Source: a virus (Duplodnaviria > Caudoviricetes). From it: a stretch of 64,000 bases of DNA. The position numbers and the translations under genes are program-made. The stretch spans positions 160,001 through 224,000 of the IMG/VR virus record IMGVR_UViG_3300037851_000141. One strand, given 5' to 3'. This document shows, piece after piece, positions 17,191-40,343 of this stretch. Within the stretch, counting starts at the first letter, position 1; every line of letters begins with the position of its first letter. Under the pieces are notes generated by a model. That model was not told the origin of the DNA. It searched no databases and saw only the letters and a list, made by a program, of their open reading frames with translations.

Positions 17191-17281
17191 GGAATGGTGA
17201 GTGAGAAGGATTAAACTAGCTGTTTACTAAACAGCCGAGCCTCCCAAAGAGGCTCCGTGGGTTCGAATCCCACCCATTCCA
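17191..17281 (+). tRNA. tRNA-Ser(ACT)
   Basis: GCTGT-TTACTAA-ACAGC; variable arm nearly identical to tRNA-Ser(TGA). Confidence 0.85.
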
Positions 17282-20337: not shown

Positions 20338-20343
20338 TTTCAT

Positions 20344-20427
20344 TCAACGGTGCCCCGAATGATAAGGGACTCGGCTGTTAACCGAGCGGGAGAAATCCCA
20401 TTGCTGGTTTGACTCCAGCCCGTTGAG
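20344..20427 (+). tRNA. tRNA-Asn(GTT) with long variable arm
   Basis: TCAACGG/CCGTTGA, G73, CTCGG-CTGTTAA-CCGAG, GGGA-GAAA-TCCC variable hairpin. Confidence 0.8.
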
Positions 20428-20432
20428 TTAAA

Positions 20433-21349: not shown

Positions 21350-22956
21350 TAAAATCTTACTCGTTCTACTGCTCTGACCTTAATAAGAAAAAGACAGATT
21401 TACTCTTACAAAAAGCAGTAGAATTGAGAGATTTTAAGAATCAAATATCTAAAGAAGTTTGTTCTAACTTTAGTTATTTCAACGAGATAAGTAAATTTGA
21501 CTGGATAACTTATTTCAGAACTCAACTTCCAAATTGTAATAATCAAGATATAAGTAATGCTATTTCAGATGTTTATGATAGTTATGAAAATAAACGAAAT
21601 AAGTTTATACAAAATATCTCATTCAAAGTCCAAAAAGAAATAAAATATACTTATTACAAAAATAACGGTAAAACTTATAAAAAAGGTGATGTTCGAGATG
21701 CTGAAGTTATCCTTGGAAGTAATAAGTTTACTAAATGCCTTACCTACTTATGTAGATACTGGAATCCTAACTTTATATCCTGGCTTGAAGAAAATAAAGA
21801 CCTTGATGAAAAGAAAGCCCAACTTCGTAATGATGCTCTGTCTTTGTTTAAGAAATATCCTGAACGAATAACGGTTCTTATTATCTCTCATAGAACCTCA
21901 GTAATAAACGAACTTGTTGAACATCCAATAACGTTCAACTCACTTAGTTTCAGAAGTTGTAATGAACTAAGAACTAAAATACTTAATAGAAATAAGAATC
22001 TCCAGGCTATATTTGGTGCTATTATAACTCTTGGAGGACAGAAAACATCATCAGGCAAACTCCATATTCCTGTAAAATATAGTTACTCTCATCATGGAAA
22101 TATAGATGACTATGATAAATCACCAAACGCTAAAGGGGTCAAAACTATATCATATACAGTCTGCTTCTATAAAAATAAAATAAGATTTGTATTAGGTAAA
22201 ACTGTAGATGATGAACTTCCGATAACTGACAAGAACGAATATTATGGAATTGATCTAAACGTTAAACATAATCTCTTCTGTGATAAACATGGGCAAACTA
22301 TAGATTATGATAGACGTATATTTCAAGATTATGTTAACTTCCTCAAAACCTTAGACTCAAAACATCAATATAAAAAACAACATAATCTCAATCTGGAATT
22401 AAGTAAAAAAGACCAAGACAAGTATGACACTTGGACTTCTCGTATAAAAGATATGTTGAAACGTAAATCTAATCAATTAGTCAAACAAGCAATAACTCAA
22501 GGCAAAAATCACATTGTAATGGAAGACCTTGGACAATTCTGTAAGTCATTTTCAAGATCAGAAGACTTTGACGGTTTCAAGTATTCTAGACTCATAAAGA
22601 TGTTAAATCTATCTGACTTGAAAAACATTGTCAAGTCAATTGCGAATAAACACGGAATTCAAGTCTCATTTGTTCATTCTCATTATACTAGCCAAACTTG
22701 CTCAAAATGTGGATTCATCTCAAGAGAAAATCGTAAATCGCAAGAAACTTTCTCTTGTCTTGAATGTGGACATACTAATAATGCTGATTCCAATTCTGCT
22801 GAAAATATAGAAAATAGAATGTCTGTAGATGATCTACAGGTCAAACTTCTATTGTCAGATAATGGTTCATGCTATCCTAAGAAACTAGGGAAGGCAACTA
22901 TTATCTCTATATTACATGATTACTATTCTCAAAAAGAAATAAACAAATTAGAGTGA
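21346..22956 (+). CDS. tnpB: TnpB / Cas12f-like RNA-guided nuclease (536 aa)
   Basis: RuvC GIDLN, VMEDL, NADSNSA; zinc finger CSKC..CLEC; YTSQTC. Confidence 0.9.
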   Translation: MIKSYSFYCSDLNKKKTDLLLQKAVELRDFKNQISKEVCSNFSYFNEISKFDWITYFRTQLPNCNNQDISNAISDVYDSYENKRNKFIQNISFKVQKEIKYTYYKNNGKTYKKGDVRDAEVILGSNKFTKCLTYLCRYWNPNFISWLEENKDLDEKKAQLRNDALSLFKKYPERITVLIISHRTSVINELVEHPITFNSLSFRSCNELRTKILNRNKNLQAIFGAIITLGGQKTSSGKLHIPVKYSYSHHGNIDDYDKSPNAKGVKTISYTVCFYKNKIRFVLGKTVDDELPITDKNEYYGIDLNVKHNLFCDKHGQTIDYDRRIFQDYVNFLKTLDSKHQYKKQHNLNLELSKKDQDKYDTWTSRIKDMLKRKSNQLVKQAITQGKNHIVMEDLGQFCKSFSRSEDFDGFKYSRLIKMLNLSDLKNIVKSIANKHGIQVSFVHSHYTSQTCSKCGFISRENRKSQETFSCLECGHTNNADSNSAENIENRMSVDDLQVKLLLSDNGSCYPKKLGKATIISILHDYYSQKEINKLE

Positions 22957-23006: not shown

Positions 23007-23123
23007 TACTCCTTAGTTCAATGGTAGAACATCGGCCTTGATCGCTATAGGAAGCAATGTAGTTCAAGTCTACAAGTGATCACCATGGAGCCGAGAATGC
23101 TGGTTCGAATCCAGCAGGAGTAA
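23007..23123 (+). tRNA. interrupted tRNA, best reconstructed as tRNA-Gln(TTG), with 46-nt mini-tRNA insert at 23040-23085
   Basis: TACTCCT/AGGAGTA, D arm GTTC/GAAC, TCGGC/GCCGA stem; CTT+TGGA after removal of insert. Confidence 0.75.
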
Positions 23124-23129
23124 TTTTAT

Positions 23130-32638: not shown

Positions 32639-33979
32639 ATGCCCACTTTTTCGATAAAACACATTCTGGATGAAGCATTTGGTCGTACTGTTGATGACTT
32701 AAATGCTAAACTTGTTCAATTAGCTAAAACCTGGGGTGGTAAAGTATATATTGTTGGTGGTGCCGTTCGTGATGAATTGATGGGCATTAAACCTAAAGAT
32801 ATTGATTACCTTGTCACTAAAATTGAATCATCTGATCTTGCTAAAAAACTACAAAATATTCTTCCTGGTGCCAAGGTAAATGAAGTAGGTAAATCTTTTG
32901 GTATCATAAAACTTGTTGTTGGTGATGATGAATATGATTTTGCTATTCCAAGAGCCGATGTTGATAGAGATAATGTAAAAACTGATCCAAATATCCCGGT
33001 TGAACAAGATTTATTGAGAAGAGACATAACAATAAATTCTATGGCTAAGGATGTTGAAACTGGAGAAATAATATCTGCTTTTGGTGAAGATGGCGTTGCT
33101 GATGTTAAGAATAAGATAATAAAAGCAACAGGCGACCCAAAACAGAGATTTAAGGAAGATCCGTTAAGGATGTTAAGGTGTATACAATTTTCTGCTCGTT
33201 TTGGATTTGATATTGAACCAAACACATTTAAAGCAATTCAAGAACTTAAAGATGATTTCAATCAATTATCAGTAGAACGATTTAGAGACGAATTCTATAA
33301 AGGTTGGACTAAAGGTAATAAAGACACCACGAAATTCTTACAACTATTAGTGGATACTGGTGTAGGTAATCTCTTATTTGGTTCAGATTTTAAGCCTATT
33401 GCCATTGATATAAAGAATAAAGATCCAGAGTCAGCATTCAATGCGCAATATATAGCAATGTTCCTTAATGGCGGCGACCCAACCAGATTAAGCAACTTTA
33501 ACTATGATCATGATTTGATTTTTGTTGCTCGACTCTTAAAATCTTTTATTGATAATGGTATTGATTGGAATGAATTGAAAAAGTTATATAAACATGGAGA
33601 TTTATTCCCAATTATTGCTGAAGCTTTTTATCTTATTGATCCTAAATTGGGTGATAAACTAAAGAGTATGTTATCAAAACCTCTTATACAACGGTTAAAT
33701 AAATCTCGTTGGAATATATGGGAGTTGCCGATTCAAGGTGGAGAAATACTTGAAATAATGGGTGGTAAAATACAAAATAAATCAATACCAGTTGTTATAC
33801 AGAAACTCATAAAAGCCTATCAAAATGGAGAAATAGCAATAAATCCAGATAATGAAGATGAATCTAAAGAACTTGCTAAAAAATATATATCAACTGTACT
33901 GGTAAACGATAAAGATATAAAAGAATCAGATCGTCTTGGTATATTTGAATCAAGAATCTTCAACATTTTCAACCGATAA
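32639..33979 (+). CDS. cca: class II tRNA nucleotidyltransferase (CCA-adding enzyme)
   Basis: VGGAVRD, DIDY, RRDITINSMA, EDPLRMLR..F..RF, ER. Confidence 0.92.
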   Translation: MPTFSIKHILDEAFGRTVDDLNAKLVQLAKTWGGKVYIVGGAVRDELMGIKPKDIDYLVTKIESSDLAKKLQNILPGAKVNEVGKSFGIIKLVVGDDEYDFAIPRADVDRDNVKTDPNIPVEQDLLRRDITINSMAKDVETGEIISAFGEDGVADVKNKIIKATGDPKQRFKEDPLRMLRCIQFSARFGFDIEPNTFKAIQELKDDFNQLSVERFRDEFYKGWTKGNKDTTKFLQLLVDTGVGNLLFGSDFKPIAIDIKNKDPESAFNAQYIAMFLNGGDPTRLSNFNYDHDLIFVARLLKSFIDNGIDWNELKKLYKHGDLFPIIAEAFYLIDPKLGDKLKSMLSKPLIQRLNKSRWNIWELPIQGGEILEIMGGKIQNKSIPVVIQKLIKAYQNGEIAINPDNEDESKELAKKYISTVLVNDKDIKESDRLGIFESRIFNIFNR

Positions 33980-36930: not shown

Positions 36931-37722
36931 ATGGACATGCACTTTCAATCCGTAGTCGTAACTCTCGTTGGAGCCGACAATAAACCCTTTAGGGAATATG
37001 ATCCACACCAAGTAGAAAATGGCAGACGTTGTAATCTGATTATGCCATTTGATACTGAATATAAGGTTTTCGTTAAGAATCTCGCAGACCGTAGAATTAA
37101 ACTTGATATTGAAGTTGATGGAACTAATGTATCAGGTAAAGGTCTTATTATTGGTTCTAAAGAAAATGCCTATATTGAACGATTTGTTGATGCGGCTCGT
37201 AAATTCAAGTTTGTAAAGGCTCAAGGTGCTGGCGCAAACCCAAATGTAGCCGATCCAACAAGTCCTGAAAATGGTATAGTGAAAATCCGAGTAGCCAAAG
37301 AGAAACAAGCTACATTAAATTGGAATTATTATTACAATCAGCCTTCAATATGGACTTCCCCAATAAATCCATATCCACTAAATCCAGAAATTATTTGTTA
37401 TGGGTCACAGTCAAATCCGACAGGAACACCAATATCATGTTCATATAAAGGTGGTGCTGGAGATAATATAAAACGAGGGTTCAGCACCAAATCAATGAGT
37501 TTTAGTAGTTTGGCATCTGCTGAGACACAACCAAAGACTGATGTTGGTGCTACTGTAGAAGGTAATAATAGTGGTCAATCTTTCGGCACAACTTACTGGA
37601 ATGGTGATGACGGAGATTCAATGGTATTTACGTTTTATGTTCGTGGCGTCGAGAATGGAATAACACCAGAAGAACAACGTCAATATGAAGAATACCTGCG
37701 TCTCAAAGAAAAATTTGGTTGA
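36931..37722 (+). CDS. conserved hypothetical protein
   Basis: AAGGAAGGA RBS, long ORF. Confidence 0.75.
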   Translation: MDMHFQSVVVTLVGADNKPFREYDPHQVENGRRCNLIMPFDTEYKVFVKNLADRRIKLDIEVDGTNVSGKGLIIGSKENAYIERFVDAARKFKFVKAQGAGANPNVADPTSPENGIVKIRVAKEKQATLNWNYYYNQPSIWTSPINPYPLNPEIICYGSQSNPTGTPISCSYKGGAGDNIKRGFSTKSMSFSSLASAETQPKTDVGATVEGNNSGQSFGTTYWNGDDGDSMVFTFYVRGVENGITPEEQRQYEEYLRLKEKFG

Positions 37723-37746
37723 CAAATAGAAAAATGTTGGTAAAAT
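37719..37746 (+). promoter_or_regulatory. sigma70-type promoter of tRNA
   Basis: TTGACA-N16-TAAAAT followed by 11-bp leader hairpin AGGGGCGTATC/GGTACGCCTCT. Confidence 0.7.
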
Positions 37747-37790
37747 AGGGGCGTATCAGATATAAATCACTTGGTACGCCTCTTTTACAT

Positions 37791-37907
37791 GCTGGTTTAG
37801 CTCAGGGGTAGAGCAGTTGTTTTGCTGGAATATAGGAAAGCAAGACGGTTCGAGTCCGTCATTCTGGAATAAACAACAGGTCGGGGGTTCAAATCCCTCA
37901 ACCAGCA
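37791..37907 (+). tRNA. interrupted tRNA, best reconstructed as tRNA-Thr(TGT), with 45-nt mini-tRNA insert at 37825-37869
   Basis: GCTGGTT/AACCAGC, GCTC/GAGC D arm, GTTGT/ACAAC stem, AGGTC variable loop; TTTG+TAA after removal. Confidence 0.8.
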
Positions 37908-37921
37908 TTATAAATAATACT

Positions 37922-38260
37922 ATGAACATAAACCATATCTTTGACAACTTTATAGAAACTGGAAAAATGAGTGTTGATGATGCTAAATTGTTTCTTGACC
38001 AAATCTTAGAGTTCACCAAAGGTCAAGAATTTACAAGTGTCATTGATGTTTATTCTTTTTTAGTTGAACATGGTTTGGTTGAAGATAAACTAAAATTCCA
38101 TGAGCCAACTAAAAGAATGTATCTTGATTCGTCTAAAGCACATAAGGTAATAAGATTCTTTAAGTCATTGGATCTTATTGAATATACAGACGAAGATTTT
38201 GAGGACTTCAAGAAAAAAGTACTTGACTCTGAAACATCTCTTGGTAAAATACTACCATGA
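37922..38260 (+). CDS. hypothetical late protein
   Basis: TATAAATA 37909-16; ORF-track start 37817 overlaps tRNA and is rejected. Confidence 0.65.
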   Translation: MNINHIFDNFIETGKMSVDDAKLFLDQILEFTKGQEFTSVIDVYSFLVEHGLVEDKLKFHEPTKRMYLDSSKAHKVIRFFKSLDLIEYTDEDFEDFKKKVLDSETSLGKILP

Positions 38261-38351
38261 GACATAAACATGAGTCAAATCATCTTTTATCTATCTGAGT
38301 GCGGACCCTAAACAGGTCGTTGGCACACGAATTGACAAGTATATATCGTAC

Positions 38352-38426
38352 TGCGGGATGGTGTAACGGTTAGCATAGCGGCCTCATAAGCCGCAGATTT
38401 AGGTTCAAATCCTGATCCCGCCACCA
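38352..38426 (+). tRNA. tRNA-Met(CAT), initiator-like
   Basis: 1:72 T-C mismatch, GCGGC-CTCATAA-GCCGC, CCA. Confidence 0.85.
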
Positions 38427-38428
38427 AT

Positions 38429-38490
38429 AATCCGAATGCTGATAAGATTACATATCATTAAAAACCAATCTTATCAAATTTTGTCGGATT
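38429..38490 (+). ncRNA. short Y-RNA-like RNA 2
   Basis: AATCCGA/TCGGATT, ATGC/AATTTTG internal loop, TGATAAGATT/AATCTTATCA. Confidence 0.7.
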
Positions 38491-38503
38491 TTATTTCTGA
38501 GTT

Positions 38504-38575
38504 AATACCGAATGCTTGTTGAGAGTACATTTCCTTGTAAGAAACCAACCCCTCTCAACCACTTTTGTCGGTATT
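38504..38575 (+). ncRNA. short Y-RNA-like RNA 3
   Basis: AATACCGA/TCGGTATT, GTTGAGAG/CTCTCAAC, loop TACAT-TTC-CTTGTAA-GAA. Confidence 0.7.
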
Positions 38576-38583
38576 TTTCTTTA

Positions 38584-38693
38584 TGAGGGTTCGAATTCAA
38601 GTTGCTGGTGGAATTCCCACGACCTACCTACCAGTAGTAAAGAGCTTGATAGTAGAATAGCTAAGCGCGGCCAGTCGTGACCTCAAAACTGGC
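38584..38693 (+). ncRNA. unassigned structured, possibly pseudoknotted RNA
   Basis: TGAGG/CCTCA, TCAAG/CTTGA, 10-bp TTGCTGGTGG/CTACCAGTAG, GCCAGT/ACTGGC. Confidence 0.4.
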
Positions 38694-38698
38694 GTTAC

Positions 38699-38776
38699 GC
38701 TCTCATCGTCTAGCCCGGTTAGGACATTTGGTTTTCATCCAAAAAACGTGGAGTTCAAATCTCCCTGAGAGTACCA
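38699..38776 (+). tRNA. tRNA-Glu(TTC)
   Basis: GCTCTCA/TGAGAGT, TTTGG-TTTTCAT-CCAAA, CCA. Confidence 0.88.
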
Positions 38777-38778
38777 AT

Positions 38779-38841
38779 GAAGCGAATGCAGATAAGATTA
38801 CATTCTGGAAAAAATAAAATCTTATCAAATTTTGTCGCTTC
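38779..38841 (+). ncRNA. short Y-RNA-like RNA 4
   Basis: GAAGCGA/TCGCTTC, GATAAGATT/AATCTTATC, AATTTTGTC. Confidence 0.7.
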
Positions 38842-38847
38842 TTATAT

Positions 38848-38953
38848 GCTGCGTTGACAGATCGGTTATGTGCTAGCCTTCCCGAGAAAAGGAGCCTAAA
38901 GCTTTAATTCTCGACCAAAGCTAGAAAGGCGGGTTCGATTCCCGCACGCGGCT
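38848..38953 (+). tRNA. interrupted tRNA, best reconstructed as tRNA-Gly(TCC), with 35-nt minihelix-ACCA insert at 38883-38917
   Basis: GCTGCGT/ACGCGGC, U73, CTAGC/GCTAG stem; CTTCC+AA after removal. Confidence 0.75.
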
Positions 38954-39026
38954 TAGATAGTTTAGTGTGGTGTTTTTTGAGAAATAAGAACGATTGGCTG
39001 GTCGGAAGCTACCAAGAGTTAGTGAT

Positions 39027-40343
39027 TTAGTTATCAACTGTTATCACTTTGGTTGTTGGGTCAAGATGGACTCTAAGCTCATCTCCGTCCAGAGTATAGA
39101 AACCAGTTTCCTTCCAGTAGAAACCCTTCCTATTTAACTCTAACTTACGTAATTTGGGAGGTATGTCGGGTAAGGTCTGTTCGTGGTTGCACGACGCATT
39201 ATAGTCTGCGTCGTCAGAAAAGCCACAACCTCGACAGATGTAAATCTTACCCTTCCTATTACTCTTACGTACCAATCCGCAACAACTACACCGTTGACTT
39301 CTGTAAGTACAAGACTGTAAAGTGAAGTGGACCCCAGCCTCTTCACAGCGGCTACTTACTTTGTCTCTGATGAGTGTGTTTGTCCAGTGGGACATCTTAC
39401 GACTCGTTCTACGACCATAGTTTATGTTATTTATCTCTTCCAACTTTAGATGCTTGATGTTCATTAAGTTTAGTTGGTTGACTGACCAATTAATGAAGTT
39501 CTCACGGTGAGATTGGGCTTTAAGGAAGGCTCGACTTCCTTTACGTTTGGCACTCAATTTATCTATAATAGAATCTAATGAGTGTCCATGAGAGTCTGTC
39601 TTTGGTGTTGTTTGTCTGTCCGACAACGATATTATTGTCAATTTACCTTGGTCAGCACCAACATCAACACCTTTGGTCTTAGGTGGAACATCTTTTTCCC
39701 ACCGTAGATTTACGAAGTTGGTTCCGATGAGGAACGAGTTGAGCATCTTCCAATCAGCATATTTTGAGTTATGTTTGTGGAATCTTATAGGTAGTTTGAT
39801 ATGACCATATTCATCACCGATACATTTGAGTCTGAGGACTCCGTTGAAATATGATGTATTTTGGGTTGGTTCCCAATCTATACATTTGCTTGATAATTCT
39901 GGGTTGATATTACTAAGATCAGGCTTTAGAGCCTGGAATTTCTGTAGATTTTGATATAGTCTCTCATTATAAACTCCTTCATCACAGAGTTTATTGAATA
40001 CCCATAATCTTCGTCTACGGACTTCCGTAGTTGCTGATATACATCCAGCAACCTGAGTTACCAGAGAGGATAATGCTCGGGCTGATAGTGGAGTTTGAAT
40101 ACCAAACAATTTGTAATCTATGAAACTTGGAGTTTCAAGGTTATCATCTTTGATAGAGAACTGATGCTCTGTAGATACTCCAGTTTCTTTATTTGTAGTA
40201 GTCCACTTGTATCCATGTTCCCAAATAAGGTCAACTATGAGTTGCCCAACTCTACGATACTCGGCAATAAACTTGTTCAACTTGTCAAGTTTATTCTTAT
40301 TTGTATCTTTAAGAGAATGAGAAGTTGACCGTATAGTAGTCAT
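39027..40343 (-). CDS. tnpB: TnpB RNA-guided nuclease (438 aa)
   Basis: RuvC GADQG, LEEIN, DADYNAS; YRSQRCSCC..CRGC. Confidence 0.88.
   Translation of the reverse strand: MTTIRSTSHSLKDTNKNKLDKLNKFIAEYRRVGQLIVDLIWEHGYKWTTTNKETGVSTEHQFSIKDDNLETPSFIDYKLFGIQTPLSARALSSLVTQVAGCISATTEVRRRRLWVFNKLCDEGVYNERLYQNLQKFQALKPDLSNINPELSSKCIDWEPTQNTSYFNGVLRLKCIGDEYGHIKLPIRFHKHNSKYADWKMLNSFLIGTNFVNLRWEKDVPPKTKGVDVGADQGKLTIISLSDRQTTPKTDSHGHSLDSIIDKLSAKRKGSRAFLKAQSHRENFINWSVNQLNLMNIKHLKLEEINNINYGRRTSRKMSHWTNTLIRDKVSSRCEEAGVHFTLQSCTYRSQRCSCCGLVRKSNRKGKIYICRGCGFSDDADYNASCNHEQTLPDIPPKLRKLELNRKGFYWKETGFYTLDGDELRVHLDPTTKVITVDN

What the first reader, a model, noticed from the sequence alone, without database searches (positions are those of the whole stretch)
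37791..37907. tRNA-Thr-like gene with a homologous mini-tRNA insert lacking CCA
Seen: insert 37825-37869 reads CTGGAAT / ATAGGAAAGCAA / GACGG-TTCGAGT-CCGTC / ATTCTGG / AA. The stems differ completely in sequence from the Gln insert, yet architecture and linker are retained, which is natural covariation. The host body has G1-C72, C2-G71 and an AGGTC variable loop typical of tRNA-Thr. The gene has its own sigma70 promoter and leader hairpin, arguing against decay. The 3' boundary differs from the other two inserts (AA rather than ACCA), which is unexplained; cleavage right after the discriminator would leave an 8-nt loop.
Basis: partly seen in the sequence, partly recalled or inferred. Interest (0 to 1): 0.8.

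Follow-up and report, generated by a model that had tools for sequence, protein, structure and literature searches.

The report
tRNA-shaped mini-intron in phage tRNA-Thr
A threonine tRNA gene of a 332-kb freshwater phage is split in its anticodon by a 45-base insert shaped like the top half of a tRNA; such inserts must be cut out by a route nobody has demonstrated, and this copy, with no CCA tail, breaks the boundary rule its three siblings obey.

Summary
Window 37791-37907 is a full-length tRNA (Rfam 58.4 bits) carrying a 45-nt insert (37825-37869) in the anticodon loop. Alignment to uninterrupted, annotated phage tRNA-Thr(tgt) genes places the gap exactly there and leaves the loop TTTGTAA, so the gene is tRNA-Thr(UGU).

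The insert belongs to a mini-tRNA family: a 7-bp acceptor stem, the linker ATAGGAA(A)GCAA and a canonical T arm. The stems covary strongly (100% paired, 11 of 12 pairs compensatory). Copies sit nested in tRNA-Gln and tRNA-Arg of this genome and stand free in three other viral contigs.

A close relative in a groundwater metagenome keeps the Thr insert but has an intron-less tRNA-Gln.

Best reading (about 0.5, untested): host RNase P cuts at the insert's first base, a 3' endonuclease cuts behind it, and a phage RNA ligase seals the halves. The phage has Rnl1-like and Rnl2-like ligases and a CCA-adding enzyme, but no RtcB and no splicing endonuclease.

The AA tail remains unexplained. A cut after the discriminator would give an 8-nt loop.

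The closest known are the 'enigmatic' Lak megaphage tRNA introns (Devoto 2019). Unchecked notes of this scan report the same design in at least 14 other genomes. No RNA data were available.

The parts
37719..37746 (+). sigma-70-like promoter match: TTGACA, 16-nt spacer, TAAAAT with TG extension. The -35 hexamer overlaps the stop codon of the upstream ORF (36931-37722).
   Evidence: 11 of 12 matches; consensus match only, no transcript data
37747..37786 (+). strong hairpin followed by UUUU, terminator-like. Probably the terminator of the upstream ORF; the predicted start site (about 37752-37755) lies inside its 5' arm.
   Evidence: -18 kcal/mol, z -5.0, 0 of 200 shuffles as good; position relative to the promoter is inference
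37791..37824 (+). 5' exon of tRNA-Thr(UGU): acceptor 5' strand, D arm, anticodon stem 5' strand, loop positions 32-35 (TTTG)
37825..37869 (+). 45-nt mini-tRNA insert. Acceptor 5' strand 37825-31; linker ATAGGAAAGCAA 37832-43; T stem 37844-48 / 37856-60; T loop TTCGAGT 37849-55; acceptor 3' strand 37861-67; discriminator A 37868; extra A 37869. No CCA.
   Evidence: (62 bits to model R1)
37870..37907 (+). 3' exon: loop positions 36-38 (TAA), anticodon stem 3' strand, variable loop AGGTC, T arm, acceptor 3' strand, discriminator A. CCA is not encoded.
23007..23123 (+). sibling: tRNA-Gln(UUG) gene with a homologous 46-nt mini-tRNA insert (23040-23085) ending in ACCA. A relative in run X2 has this gene without the insert.
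38848..38953 (+). sibling: tRNA-Gly(UCC) gene with a 35-nt hairpin insert ending in ACCA (38883-38917)
32639..33979 (+). phage CCA-adding enzyme (446-aa ORF, PolyA_pol domain). Needed for the roughly 18 of 25 phage tRNAs that lack an encoded CCA; could also act on an excised CCA-less insert.

Best explanation
The gene encodes a precursor of tRNA-Thr(UGU) that carries a protein-dependent, tRNA-shaped mini-intron between anticodon positions 35 and 36. The insert mimics the acceptor/T-arm half of a tRNA, the part that tRNA end-processing enzymes recognise. Proposed route, all steps inferred: (1) Host RNase P cuts at the first base of the insert's acceptor stem (37824|37825), leaving a 3'-OH on the 5' exon. 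(2) A 3' endonuclease of the RNase Z type cuts behind the insert's tail (37869|37870), leaving a 5'-phosphate on the 3' exon. (3) These ends need no healing and are sealed by one of the phage's ATP-dependent RNA ligases (Rnl1-like or Rnl2-like), giving the 7-nt loop UUUGUAA. (4) The released 45-nt mini-tRNA is a by-product or a small RNA in its own right, since the same RNA stands free in other phages. What is shown: the gene's identity, the exact DNA-level boundaries, the family and its covariation, gain/loss of a sibling insert between close relatives, and the enzyme inventory. What is inferred: every RNA-level step.
For: Identity and boundaries: the Rfam tRNA model scores 58.4 bits full length with a single loop gap. 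The 5' exon matches only annotated tRNA-Thr genes. The 45-column gap falls exactly at 37825-37869 against four uninterrupted tRNA-Thr(tgt) genes, and this placement is unique because the flanking bases differ. The genome has no other Thr, Gln or Gly tRNA and no other tRNA-Arg(UCU), while the codons these tRNAs read are heavily used: ACA 36%, CAA 81%, GGA 31%, AGA 42%. Selection on the RNA shape: 100% of cells are paired, 11 of 12 pairs show changes on both sides, and 0 of 500 shuffles reach this; 60 of 60 cells are paired in five members. The linker and T loop are nearly invariant, with canonical G53-C61 and UUCRAGU. Boundary rule: in all four genes the 5' boundary is base 1 of the insert stem, and in three the 3' boundary follows NCCA, each time restoring a 7-nt loop with U33 and a purine at 37. 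Too small and of the wrong shape for known introns: 45 nt, no Rfam ribozyme or intron hit, no bulge-helix-bulge, no splicing endonuclease, no RtcB. Enzymes present in the phage: Rnl1-like (54.5 bits; T4 Rnl1 structures at E about 1e-9), Rnl2-like (76.4 bits), a CCA-adding enzyme and a small AAA_33 kinase. About 18 of 25 phage tRNAs lack an encoded CCA. By established tRNA biology, CCA-less precursors need an endonucleolytic 3' cut plus CCA addition, so the host presumably has that pathway. Three viral contigs with only free-standing copies show no Rnl1 or Rnl2 hit; only one of those contigs is complete, so this is weak. A close relative (run X2) lacks the Gln insert precisely, and its gene then reads CTT|TGGA.
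Against: There are no RNA data at all, so neither transcription nor any cut or junction has been seen. The Thr insert is the poorest RNase P-type substrate of the four: G at -1, C1-G72, no CCA. Its tail is 2 nt (AA) rather than 4 (NCCA), so no single measuring rule for the 3' cut fits all four genes. Canonical RNase Z cutting after the discriminator would give an 8-nt loop here, and in most bacteria RNase Z is inhibited by CCA, which three siblings carry (my knowledge, not tested here). The nested fold is 4.4 kcal/mol above the minimum-energy fold of the precursor. The Rnl2-like ligase, the CCA-adding enzyme and Ro60 also occur in relatives' contigs whose fetched stretches hold no insert-bearing tRNA, so these enzymes are not specifically tied to the inserts. 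The Rnl1 match covers only the nucleotidyltransferase domain, not the tRNA-specific C-terminal domain of T4 Rnl1. The phage encodes no RNase Z-like metallo-beta-lactamase and no RNase P RNA, and the host is unknown.
Confidence: 0.5

Rival explanations
1. The tRNA-Thr gene is not spliced. It was disrupted by insertion of a mobile mini-tRNA element. It now either serves only as an expression and processing platform that releases the mini-tRNA (RNase P and a 3' nuclease free it and leave two dead halves), or it is a young pseudogene.
For: The same mini-tRNA stands free in three unrelated viral contigs, so it does not need a host tRNA. Inserts come and go between close relatives: the Gln insert is absent in run X2. 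The Thr copy has lost the CCA tail that defines the 3' boundary in its siblings and has poor RNase P determinants. No uninterrupted paralogue is needed if the host supplies tRNA-Thr.
Against: All stems of both exons are intact, and the tRNA score (58.4 bits) lies in the upper half of the phage's own tRNAs. All four insertions restore perfect 7-nt loops with the anticodon expected for the body. The four interrupted genes are the phage's only tRNAs for heavily used codons. The phage has two RNA ligases. A close relative keeps the Thr insert at about 97% identity over 37777-38218, 13 differences in 442 nt.
Confidence: 0.2
2. It is a real intron giving tRNA-Thr(UGU), but it is removed by machinery other than RNase P plus RNase Z. 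One possibility is an unrecognised phage nuclease that reads the mini-tRNA shape or the 4x5-nt internal loop between the anticodon stem and the insert stem, with end-healing by the small kinase before ligation.
For: The variable tail length (AA here, NCCA in siblings; ACTA reported in another genome by an unchecked scan note) fits poorly with a single host 3' nuclease. Lak-phage introns carry a roughly 30-nt leader before their tRNA-like part, which an RNase P cut alone cannot remove. The phage encodes an AAA_33 kinase and many ORFs of unknown function.
Against: No candidate nuclease was identified. The exact coincidence of the 5' boundary with base 1 of the acceptor stem in four of four genes is what RNase P would produce. 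There is no RtcB for cyclic-phosphate ends.
Confidence: 0.15
3. The insert is cut directly after its discriminator (37868|37869), as RNase Z does on CCA-less precursors. Ligation then yields a tRNA-Thr with an 8-nt anticodon loop (UUUGAUAA), a potentially frameshift-prone or quadruplet-reading tRNA. Alternatively a shifted 5' cut gives anticodon UAU (Ile).
For: The boundary arithmetic allows it. CCA-less family members exist. Most phage tRNAs are CCA-less and so presumably processed after the discriminator. ATA makes up 45% of Ile codons.
Against: Uninterrupted homologues all have the 7-nt loop TTTGTAA, and the alignment gap includes both A's. The body lacks Ile-type features and matches tRNA-Thr genes only. 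G at -1 cannot pair with A73, so a shifted RNase P cut is unlikely.
Confidence: 0.07
4. It is an intron of a known class: a self-splicing group I intron, or an archaeal/eukaryal bulge-helix-bulge intron removed by a splicing endonuclease.
For: Group I introns do occur in bacterial and phage tRNA anticodon loops, and tRNA introns of archaea lie in the anticodon loop.
Against: 45 nt is far below the size of any group I core, and there is no Rfam hit at E up to 1. The two junctions face each other across a 4x5 internal loop rather than lying in two 3-nt bulges 4 bp apart. The phage has no tRNA_int_endo and no RtcB. The position is 35/36, not 37/38.
Confidence: 0.02

Closest known systems
'Enigmatic' introns of Lak megaphage tRNAs (Devoto et al. 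2019, Nat Microbiol; PMC6784885, text and Table S6)
   Same: They are phage tRNA genes, including Thr(TGT) and Gly(TCC), interrupted in the anticodon loop by short inserts with no Rfam intron hit. The 3' part of each insert is a tRNA-like acceptor stem plus T arm. Intron-less alleles exist in related phages. The 3' boundary lies 1-3 nt after the acceptor strand with no CCA, as in this Thr gene. The mechanism is unknown.
   Different: Lak introns are 80-114 nt, carry a roughly 30-nt hairpin leader ahead of the tRNA-like part, and have longer middle sections (the Thr one is a nearly full tRNA). Here the insert is only 45 nt, starts exactly at base 1 of the acceptor stem, has the conserved 12-nt linker ATAGGAAAGCAA, and three of the four siblings end in CCA. 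I saw no sequence similarity to the Lak introns by eye; this was not tested formally.
tRNA repair by T4 Rnl1 and Pnkp after anticodon-nuclease (PrrC) cleavage (established knowledge)
   Same: A phage ATP-dependent RNA ligase seals a break in a tRNA anticodon loop. This phage encodes an Rnl1-like ligase related to T4 Rnl1.
   Different: Repair rejoins a single cut made by a host defence nuclease, with end-healing. Here two cuts must remove 45 nt from a genome-encoded precursor, and ends made by RNase P and RNase Z would need no healing.
RNase P / RNase Z processing of tRNA-like structures embedded in longer RNAs (minihelix substrates; eukaryotic mascRNA from MALAT1; from my knowledge)
   Same: A tRNA-like acceptor/T-arm module directs both tRNA end-processing enzymes to release a small RNA from inside a larger transcript.
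   Different: In those cases the flanks are not rejoined into a functional RNA. Here the flanks are the two halves of another tRNA.
Group I introns in tRNA anticodon loops (for example tRNA-Leu(UAA) of cyanobacteria; bioRxiv 10.1101/2020.01.27.920355, seen only as the abstract excerpt in the listing)
   Same: They interrupt bacterial-type tRNA genes at variable positions in the anticodon loop, and their presence or absence differs between relatives.
   Different: They are self-splicing ribozymes of more than 200 nt. This 45-nt insert cannot hold such a core and matches no ribozyme model.

Membership tests
tRNA gene (Rfam RF00005), isotype Thr(UGU) | Cloverleaf scoring above the family's gathering threshold over the full model | tested here: met
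   58.4 bits against a gathering score of 29, model positions 1-71
tRNA gene (Rfam RF00005), isotype Thr(UGU) | 7-nt anticodon loop with U33 and a purine at 37, as encoded | tested here: not met
   The encoded loop is 52 nt. A 7-nt loop TTTGTAA arises only after removal of 37825-37869.
tRNA gene (Rfam RF00005), isotype Thr(UGU) | Homology to accepted tRNA-Thr genes and Thr identity elements (acceptor-stem pairs plus anticodon bases; PMC9976931; G1-C72, C2-G71, G35 and U36 from my knowledge of E. coli) | tested here: met
   The 5' exon hits only annotated tRNA-Thr genes. It aligns with four Thr(tgt) genes. G1-C72, C2-G71, G35 and U36 are present.
tRNA gene (Rfam RF00005), isotype Thr(UGU) | Expression, splicing and aminoacylation | not testable with these tools
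   No RNA run was listed.
Mini-tRNA insert family (model R1 built here) | 7-bp acceptor stem continuous with a 5-bp T stem on the 3' strand; linker AUAGGAA(A)GCAA; T loop UUCRAGU with G53-C61 | tested here: met
   62 bits, E 7e-14. All 12 pairs form. The linker is identical to those of L009, L019 and L020.
Mini-tRNA insert family (model R1 built here) | 3' tail NCCA | tested here: not met
   The tail is AA. L009 (ATTA) and L019 (GAAA) also lack CCA, so CCA is present in only part of the family.
Lak-type 'enigmatic' phage tRNA introns (Devoto 2019) | Short non-ribozyme insert in the anticodon loop of a phage tRNA gene, ending in a tRNA-like acceptor/T-arm module | tested here: met
Lak-type 'enigmatic' phage tRNA introns (Devoto 2019) | Intron-less allele of the same gene in related phages | tested here: inconclusive
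   Shown for the sibling Gln gene, not for this one. The only close relative (X2) keeps the Thr insert. More distant phages have uninterrupted Thr(tgt) or Thr(agt) genes.
Lak-type 'enigmatic' phage tRNA introns (Devoto 2019) | Leader hairpin of about 30 nt before the tRNA-like part; length 80-114 nt | tested here: not met
   The insert starts at base 1 of the acceptor stem and is 45 nt long.
Bulge-helix-bulge introns (archaea, eukaryotes) | Two 3-nt bulges separated by a 4-bp helix at the splice sites; splicing endonuclease and RtcB or Trl1 available | tested here: not met
   The junctions face each other across a 4x5 internal loop. The phage has no PF01974 and no PF01139 match. The host was not examined.
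Group I self-splicing introns | Catalytic core P3-P9, more than 200 nt | tested here: not met
   45 nt; no Rfam match at E up to 1.
Bacterial RNase P / RNase Z substrate (minihelix type) | 12-bp coaxial acceptor/T helix with a canonical T loop | tested here: met
Bacterial RNase P / RNase Z substrate (minihelix type) | Favourable end determinants (U at -1, G1-C72, 3' RCCA; from my knowledge) | tested here: not met
   The Thr insert has G at -1, C1-G72 and no CCA. The Gln and Arg siblings have U at -1, G1-C72 and NCCA.
Bacterial RNase P / RNase Z substrate (minihelix type) | Actual cleavage at the predicted sites | not testable with these tools
   Needs enzyme assays or RNA end mapping.

The most novel reading that the evidence does not exclude
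Bacteria infected by such phages splice tRNAs by a third, so far undemonstrated route. The intron is itself a miniature tRNA, so the universal tRNA end-trimming enzymes (RNase P at its 5' end, an RNase Z-type cut at its 3' end) excise it, and a phage RNA ligase joins the 3'-OH and 5'-phosphate halves without end-healing. The excised mini-tRNA, which stands free in other phages and here carries G3:U70 with A73 (the alanine identity mark), would be a second functional RNA made from the same gene. In a more exotic form, these inserts arose when mature mini-tRNAs were ligated into nuclease-cut anticodon loops, and the CCA-less Thr copy yields an 8-nt-loop tRNA.
Probability: 0.4. Interest if true: 0.9.

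Novelty: new variant of a known kind. Interest (0 to 1): 0.7.

Why it matters
tRNA introns in bacteria and their phages are known only as self-splicing group I ribozymes. Protein-dependent tRNA splicing is thought to be confined to archaea and eukaryotes. A 45-nt insert that cannot splice itself, sits in what is probably an essential phage tRNA, and is shaped exactly like the substrate of RNase P and RNase Z makes a concrete, cheap-to-test prediction of a new splicing pathway. It would also give the RNA ligases common in large phages a routine job beyond repair of defence damage.

This Thr copy is the informative exception. Its 2-nt tail separates models in which the 3' cut is measured from the insert from models in which it is not. 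Practically, standard tRNA finders mis-call the gene: ARAGORN's default gives tRNA-Ser(gct) at 37792-37868, and its intron mode gives Ile(aat). Phage tRNA inventories therefore miss such genes.

Tried and rejected
- **RNA evidence:** no RNA holder was listed for the 5.3-kb stretch or for 37600-39000. This says nothing either way about expression.
- **Differences in the X2 relative:** Read laying showed that X2 covers 37777-38218 with 13 differences and 1 gap, but the truncated tables do not show where they fall. I could not see whether the AA tail is conserved.
- **Searches for close relatives that found nothing:**
  - Megablast of 37000-39000 against cultured phages: no match.
  - Single-sequence search with the upstream protein in viral contigs: none.
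  - Homologues of the downstream ORF: only itself.
  - T-arm plus acceptor pattern in viral contigs: none.
- **Linker plus T-loop motif scans:**
  - Viral contigs: 24 hits, of which only 3 have the stems.
  - 185,579 bacterial and archaeal species genomes: 26 hits, none with the stems, so no cellular copy with this motif was found.
- **Model R1 over 42 relatives' loci:** nothing convincing. L033 186-231 belongs to a different, longer tRNA-like gene.
- **L009 as a second nested case:** rejected. No 3' half of a host tRNA follows it.
- **Known intron classes:** group I, bulge-helix-bulge and self-cleaving ribozyme readings are rejected.
- **Integrase att-site scar:** rejected. The insert does not duplicate the host tRNA's own 3' end and has its own complementary 5' strand.
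- **RNA-mediated origin through a phage reverse transcriptase:** no RVT_1 match in the genome.
- **Phage-encoded RNase Z-like enzyme or RNase P RNA:** none found.
- **Ile(UAU), Ile(AAU) and Ala(UGC) splice registers:** rejected on homology.
- **Literature:** five full-text searches found no paper on the mechanism of such introns. The library lacks most subscription journals.

Full report
**What is there.** Window 37791-37907 (+) holds a complete tRNA body: acceptor GCTGGTT/AACCAGC, a D arm, anticodon stem GTTGT/ACAAC, variable loop AGGTC, T arm GGGGG-TTCAAAT-CCCTC and discriminator A. The anticodon loop is 52 nt instead of 7. The Rfam tRNA model matches it end to end at 58.4 bits (gathering score 29) with one 49-nt gap in the loop. 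This is one of two such 117-nt genes in the window; the other is at 23007-23123. Standard tRNA finding fails here. ARAGORN's default setting reports a chimeric tRNA-Ser(gct) at 37792-37868, and its intron mode reports Ile(aat).

**Which tRNA, and where exactly the insert lies.**
- The 34-nt 5' exon, which runs through the G that I read as position 35, was searched against 50,697 phage records. It hits genes that are annotated tRNA-Thr wherever the record carries annotation, for example Hafnia phage Zyzzx and Listeria phage LPML1, both tRNA-Thr(tgt).
- A MAFFT alignment of the gene with those two and with two uninterrupted Thr(tgt) genes from metagenomic relatives places one clean 45-column gap at exactly 37825-37869, between TTTG and TAA. 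Because the bases on the two sides differ, this placement is unique.
- One comparator (L058) has the anticodon arm CTTGT-TTTGTAA-ACAAG, against GTTGT-TTTG|TAA-ACAAC here. The only differences are a compensatory swap at pair 27:43.
- In a syntenic relative (L031) the homologue of the upstream protein is followed by Thr, Met, Glu, Met, Gly(TCC). That is the same order as here, with both the Thr and the Gly gene uninterrupted.
- The 331,849-bp genome has 25 tRNA genes. It has no other Thr, Gln or Gly gene and no other tRNA-Arg(UCU), while Ala(TGC) and Ile(GAT) exist.
- The gene is therefore tRNA-Thr(UGU), and both A's of the tail belong to the insert.

**The insert.** Positions 37825-37869 read CTGGAAT / ATAGGAAAGCAA / GACGG-TTCGAGT-CCGTC / ATTCTGG / A / A. 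That is a 7-bp acceptor stem, continuous on its 3' strand with a 5-bp T stem, a canonical T loop, and a 12-nt linker in place of the D and anticodon arms. Alone it folds this way as its minimum-energy structure, but not better than shuffled sequence (z -0.86). The case for the structure rests on comparison:
- Homologous inserts sit in tRNA-Gln (23040-23085) and tRNA-Arg(UCU) (C1:275629-275676). A simpler hairpin ending in ACCA sits in tRNA-Gly (38883-38917).
- A structural scan finds this architecture nowhere else in the genome apart from one probable chance hit.
- A scan of IMG/VR for the linker plus T-loop motif gave 24 hits. Three have the stems (L009, L019, L020), and all three stand free rather than nested. 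One lies in a complete 41.9-kb phage with only two tRNAs.
- A covariance model built from four members scores Thr 62, Gln 59, L020 65, L009 64, L019 44 and Arg 17 bits.
- Stems are only 21-46% identical between members, yet 60 of 60 cells pair. On the four-sequence alignment, 11 of 12 pairs show changes on both sides, and 0 of 500 shuffles reach the observed values.
- The motif has no structurally valid copy in 185,579 bacterial and archaeal species genomes, and Rfam has no family for it.
- This is a phage RNA family under selection for a tRNA top-half shape.

**Gain and loss.** A groundwater metagenome (run X2) holds a close relative.
- Over 37777-38218 it differs at 13 positions and one gap, so it keeps the Thr insert.
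- At the Gln gene its contig joins 23039 directly to a 39-nt 3' half beginning TGGAGCCGG. That is an intron-less tRNA-Gln with the loop CTT|TGGA, precisely lacking the 46 nt.
- The 42 fetched loci from more distant relatives hold no insert-bearing tRNA.

**Surroundings.**
- A near-consensus promoter-like site lies at 37719-37746: TTGACA, 16 nt, TAAAAT with TG, 11 of 12 matches.
- The hairpin after it (37747-37783, -18 kcal/mol, z -5.0) is followed by a U run and starts one base after the -10 hexamer. A transcript from this promoter would begin inside its 5' arm. I therefore read the hairpin as the upstream gene's terminator overlapped by the tRNA promoter, not as a leader structure (inference).
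- About 18 of the 25 tRNA genes, including all four interrupted ones, lack an encoded CCA. Sixteen of those have T directly after the discriminator.

**Enzymes in the phage genome.**

| Family searched | Result |
|---|---|
| Rnl1-like RNA ligase (PF09511) | 54.5 bits; matches T4 Rnl1 structures at E about 1e-9, nucleotidyltransferase domain only |
| Rnl2-like RNA ligase (PF09414) | 76.4 bits |
| CCA-adding enzyme | present, window 32639-33979 |
| AAA_33 kinase | present, 150 aa |
| RtcB | none |
| tRNA splicing endonuclease | none |
| RNase Z-like metallo-beta-lactamase | none |
| RNase P RNA | none |
| Reverse transcriptase | none |

- Relatives' contigs carry the same kind of RNA module near the homologue of the upstream protein: CCA-adding enzyme and IF3 in three of four, an Rnl2-type ligase in three of four, and Ro60 in two. 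The fetched stretches of relatives hold no insert-bearing tRNA, so these enzymes are not specific to the introns.
- The three contigs with only free-standing mini-tRNAs show no Rnl1 or Rnl2 hit.

**How it most likely works.** Size, shape and the enzyme census rule out self-splicing and bulge-helix-bulge splicing.
- What the four genes share is that the insert begins at base 1 of a tRNA-type acceptor stem, which is where RNase P cuts. In three of them it ends right after NCCA, the mature tRNA 3' end.
- By established enzymology, RNase P leaves a 3'-OH upstream and RNase Z-type cleavage leaves a 5'-phosphate downstream. These are exactly the ends that Rnl1- and Rnl2-type ligases seal, and T4 Rnl1 is known to seal anticodon-loop breaks.
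- I therefore rate 'RNase P plus a 3' endonuclease plus a phage ligase' as the best explanation, at about 0.5. Every RNA-level step is inferred.
- Heavy use of ACA, CAA, GGA and AGA codons and the intact exons argue that the genes are needed.

**The unexplained part.** This copy ends in AA, not NCCA, and has G at -1 with C1-G72.
- Lack of CCA alone is not decay. L009 and L019 also lack it, and the linker and T loop here match the family consensus exactly.
- However, no single ruler for the 3' cut fits both AA| and NCCA|. A cut after the discriminator would give the 8-nt loop UUUGAUAA.
- Lak-phage introns also end 1-3 nt after the acceptor strand without CCA.
- My rough odds: 7-nt UGU product 0.55-0.65; 8-nt loop or another anticodon 0.07; not productively spliced 0.2.

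**Comparison with what is known.** Devoto et al. 2019 (PMC6784885) reported 'enigmatic' introns in Lak megaphage tRNAs, including Thr(TGT) and Gly(TCC). They noted that one 'may itself encode a tRNA', found no Rfam hit and proposed no mechanism. The present insert is a compact variant of that kind: no leader, 45 nt, a conserved linker, CCA in its siblings, and free-standing relatives. I found no paper on the mechanism in five searches. Unchecked notes of this scan report the same design in at least 14 genomes, with tails TCCA, ACCA and ACTA. Hence 'new variant of a known kind'.

Noticed in passing
window 39027-40343 (-): A 438-aa ORF with a Cas12f1-like TNB domain (TnpB/IS605-type, E 3.5e-11) lies directly downstream of the interrupted tRNA-Gly gene. 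Its guide RNA region would abut the tRNA.
   Followed up: no
window 37825-37869; L072 230-277: The Thr insert has C1-G72, U2:G71, G3:U70 and discriminator A73. G3:U70 is the universal alanine identity pair, and the Arg insert also has G3:U70. This could be chance, since 6 of 35 acceptor pairs in the family are G:U.
   Followed up: partly
L073 1300-1620 (-) = G003:C1 about 21570-21890: The free-standing mini-tRNA of a complete 41.9-kb, 27.6% GC phage is followed by three direct repeats, CGAGGARWAAACCTGGCTAAAAAT, that run up to the ribosome-binding site of the next gene.
   Followed up: no
L009 904-1524 (-): A ROOL RNA (Rfam RF03087, 253 bits) lies about 1 kb from a free-standing mini-tRNA and next to a seven-tRNA cluster in a 110-kb viral contig.
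   Followed up: no
window 23039-23125 against run X2: The groundwater relative's intron-less tRNA-Gln has a different acceptor stem (3' strand CAGCGTA against AGGAGTA here). The sequence upstream of the gene does not align either, so the gene may have been replaced rather than simply having lost the insert.
   Followed up: partly
window 20343-20428 and 17191-17281: ARAGORN calls an 86-nt tRNA-Asn(gtt) that the Rfam tRNA model does not report at its gathering score, and a 91-nt tRNA-Ser with the unusual anticodon ACT.
   Followed up: no
relatives' contigs: Relatives' contigs carry an RNA module near the homologue of the upstream protein: Ro60 (TROVE) in two of four, ADP-ribosylglycohydrolase in two, an Rnl2-type RNA ligase in three, the CCA-adding enzyme and IF3 in three. 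One relative's ligase gene carries weak intein and Hint hits.
   Followed up: no
L033 155-232 (+): A 78-nt tRNA-like gene (acceptor GCTGCTT/AAGCAGC, T loop TGCAAGT, encoded ACCA) sits just upstream of tRNA-Trp and is not called by ARAGORN.
   Followed up: no
window 37719-37790: The stop codon of the upstream ORF lies inside the -35 hexamer, and a strong terminator-like hairpin starts one base after the -10 hexamer. This is a compact overlap of terminator and promoter.
   Followed up: partly
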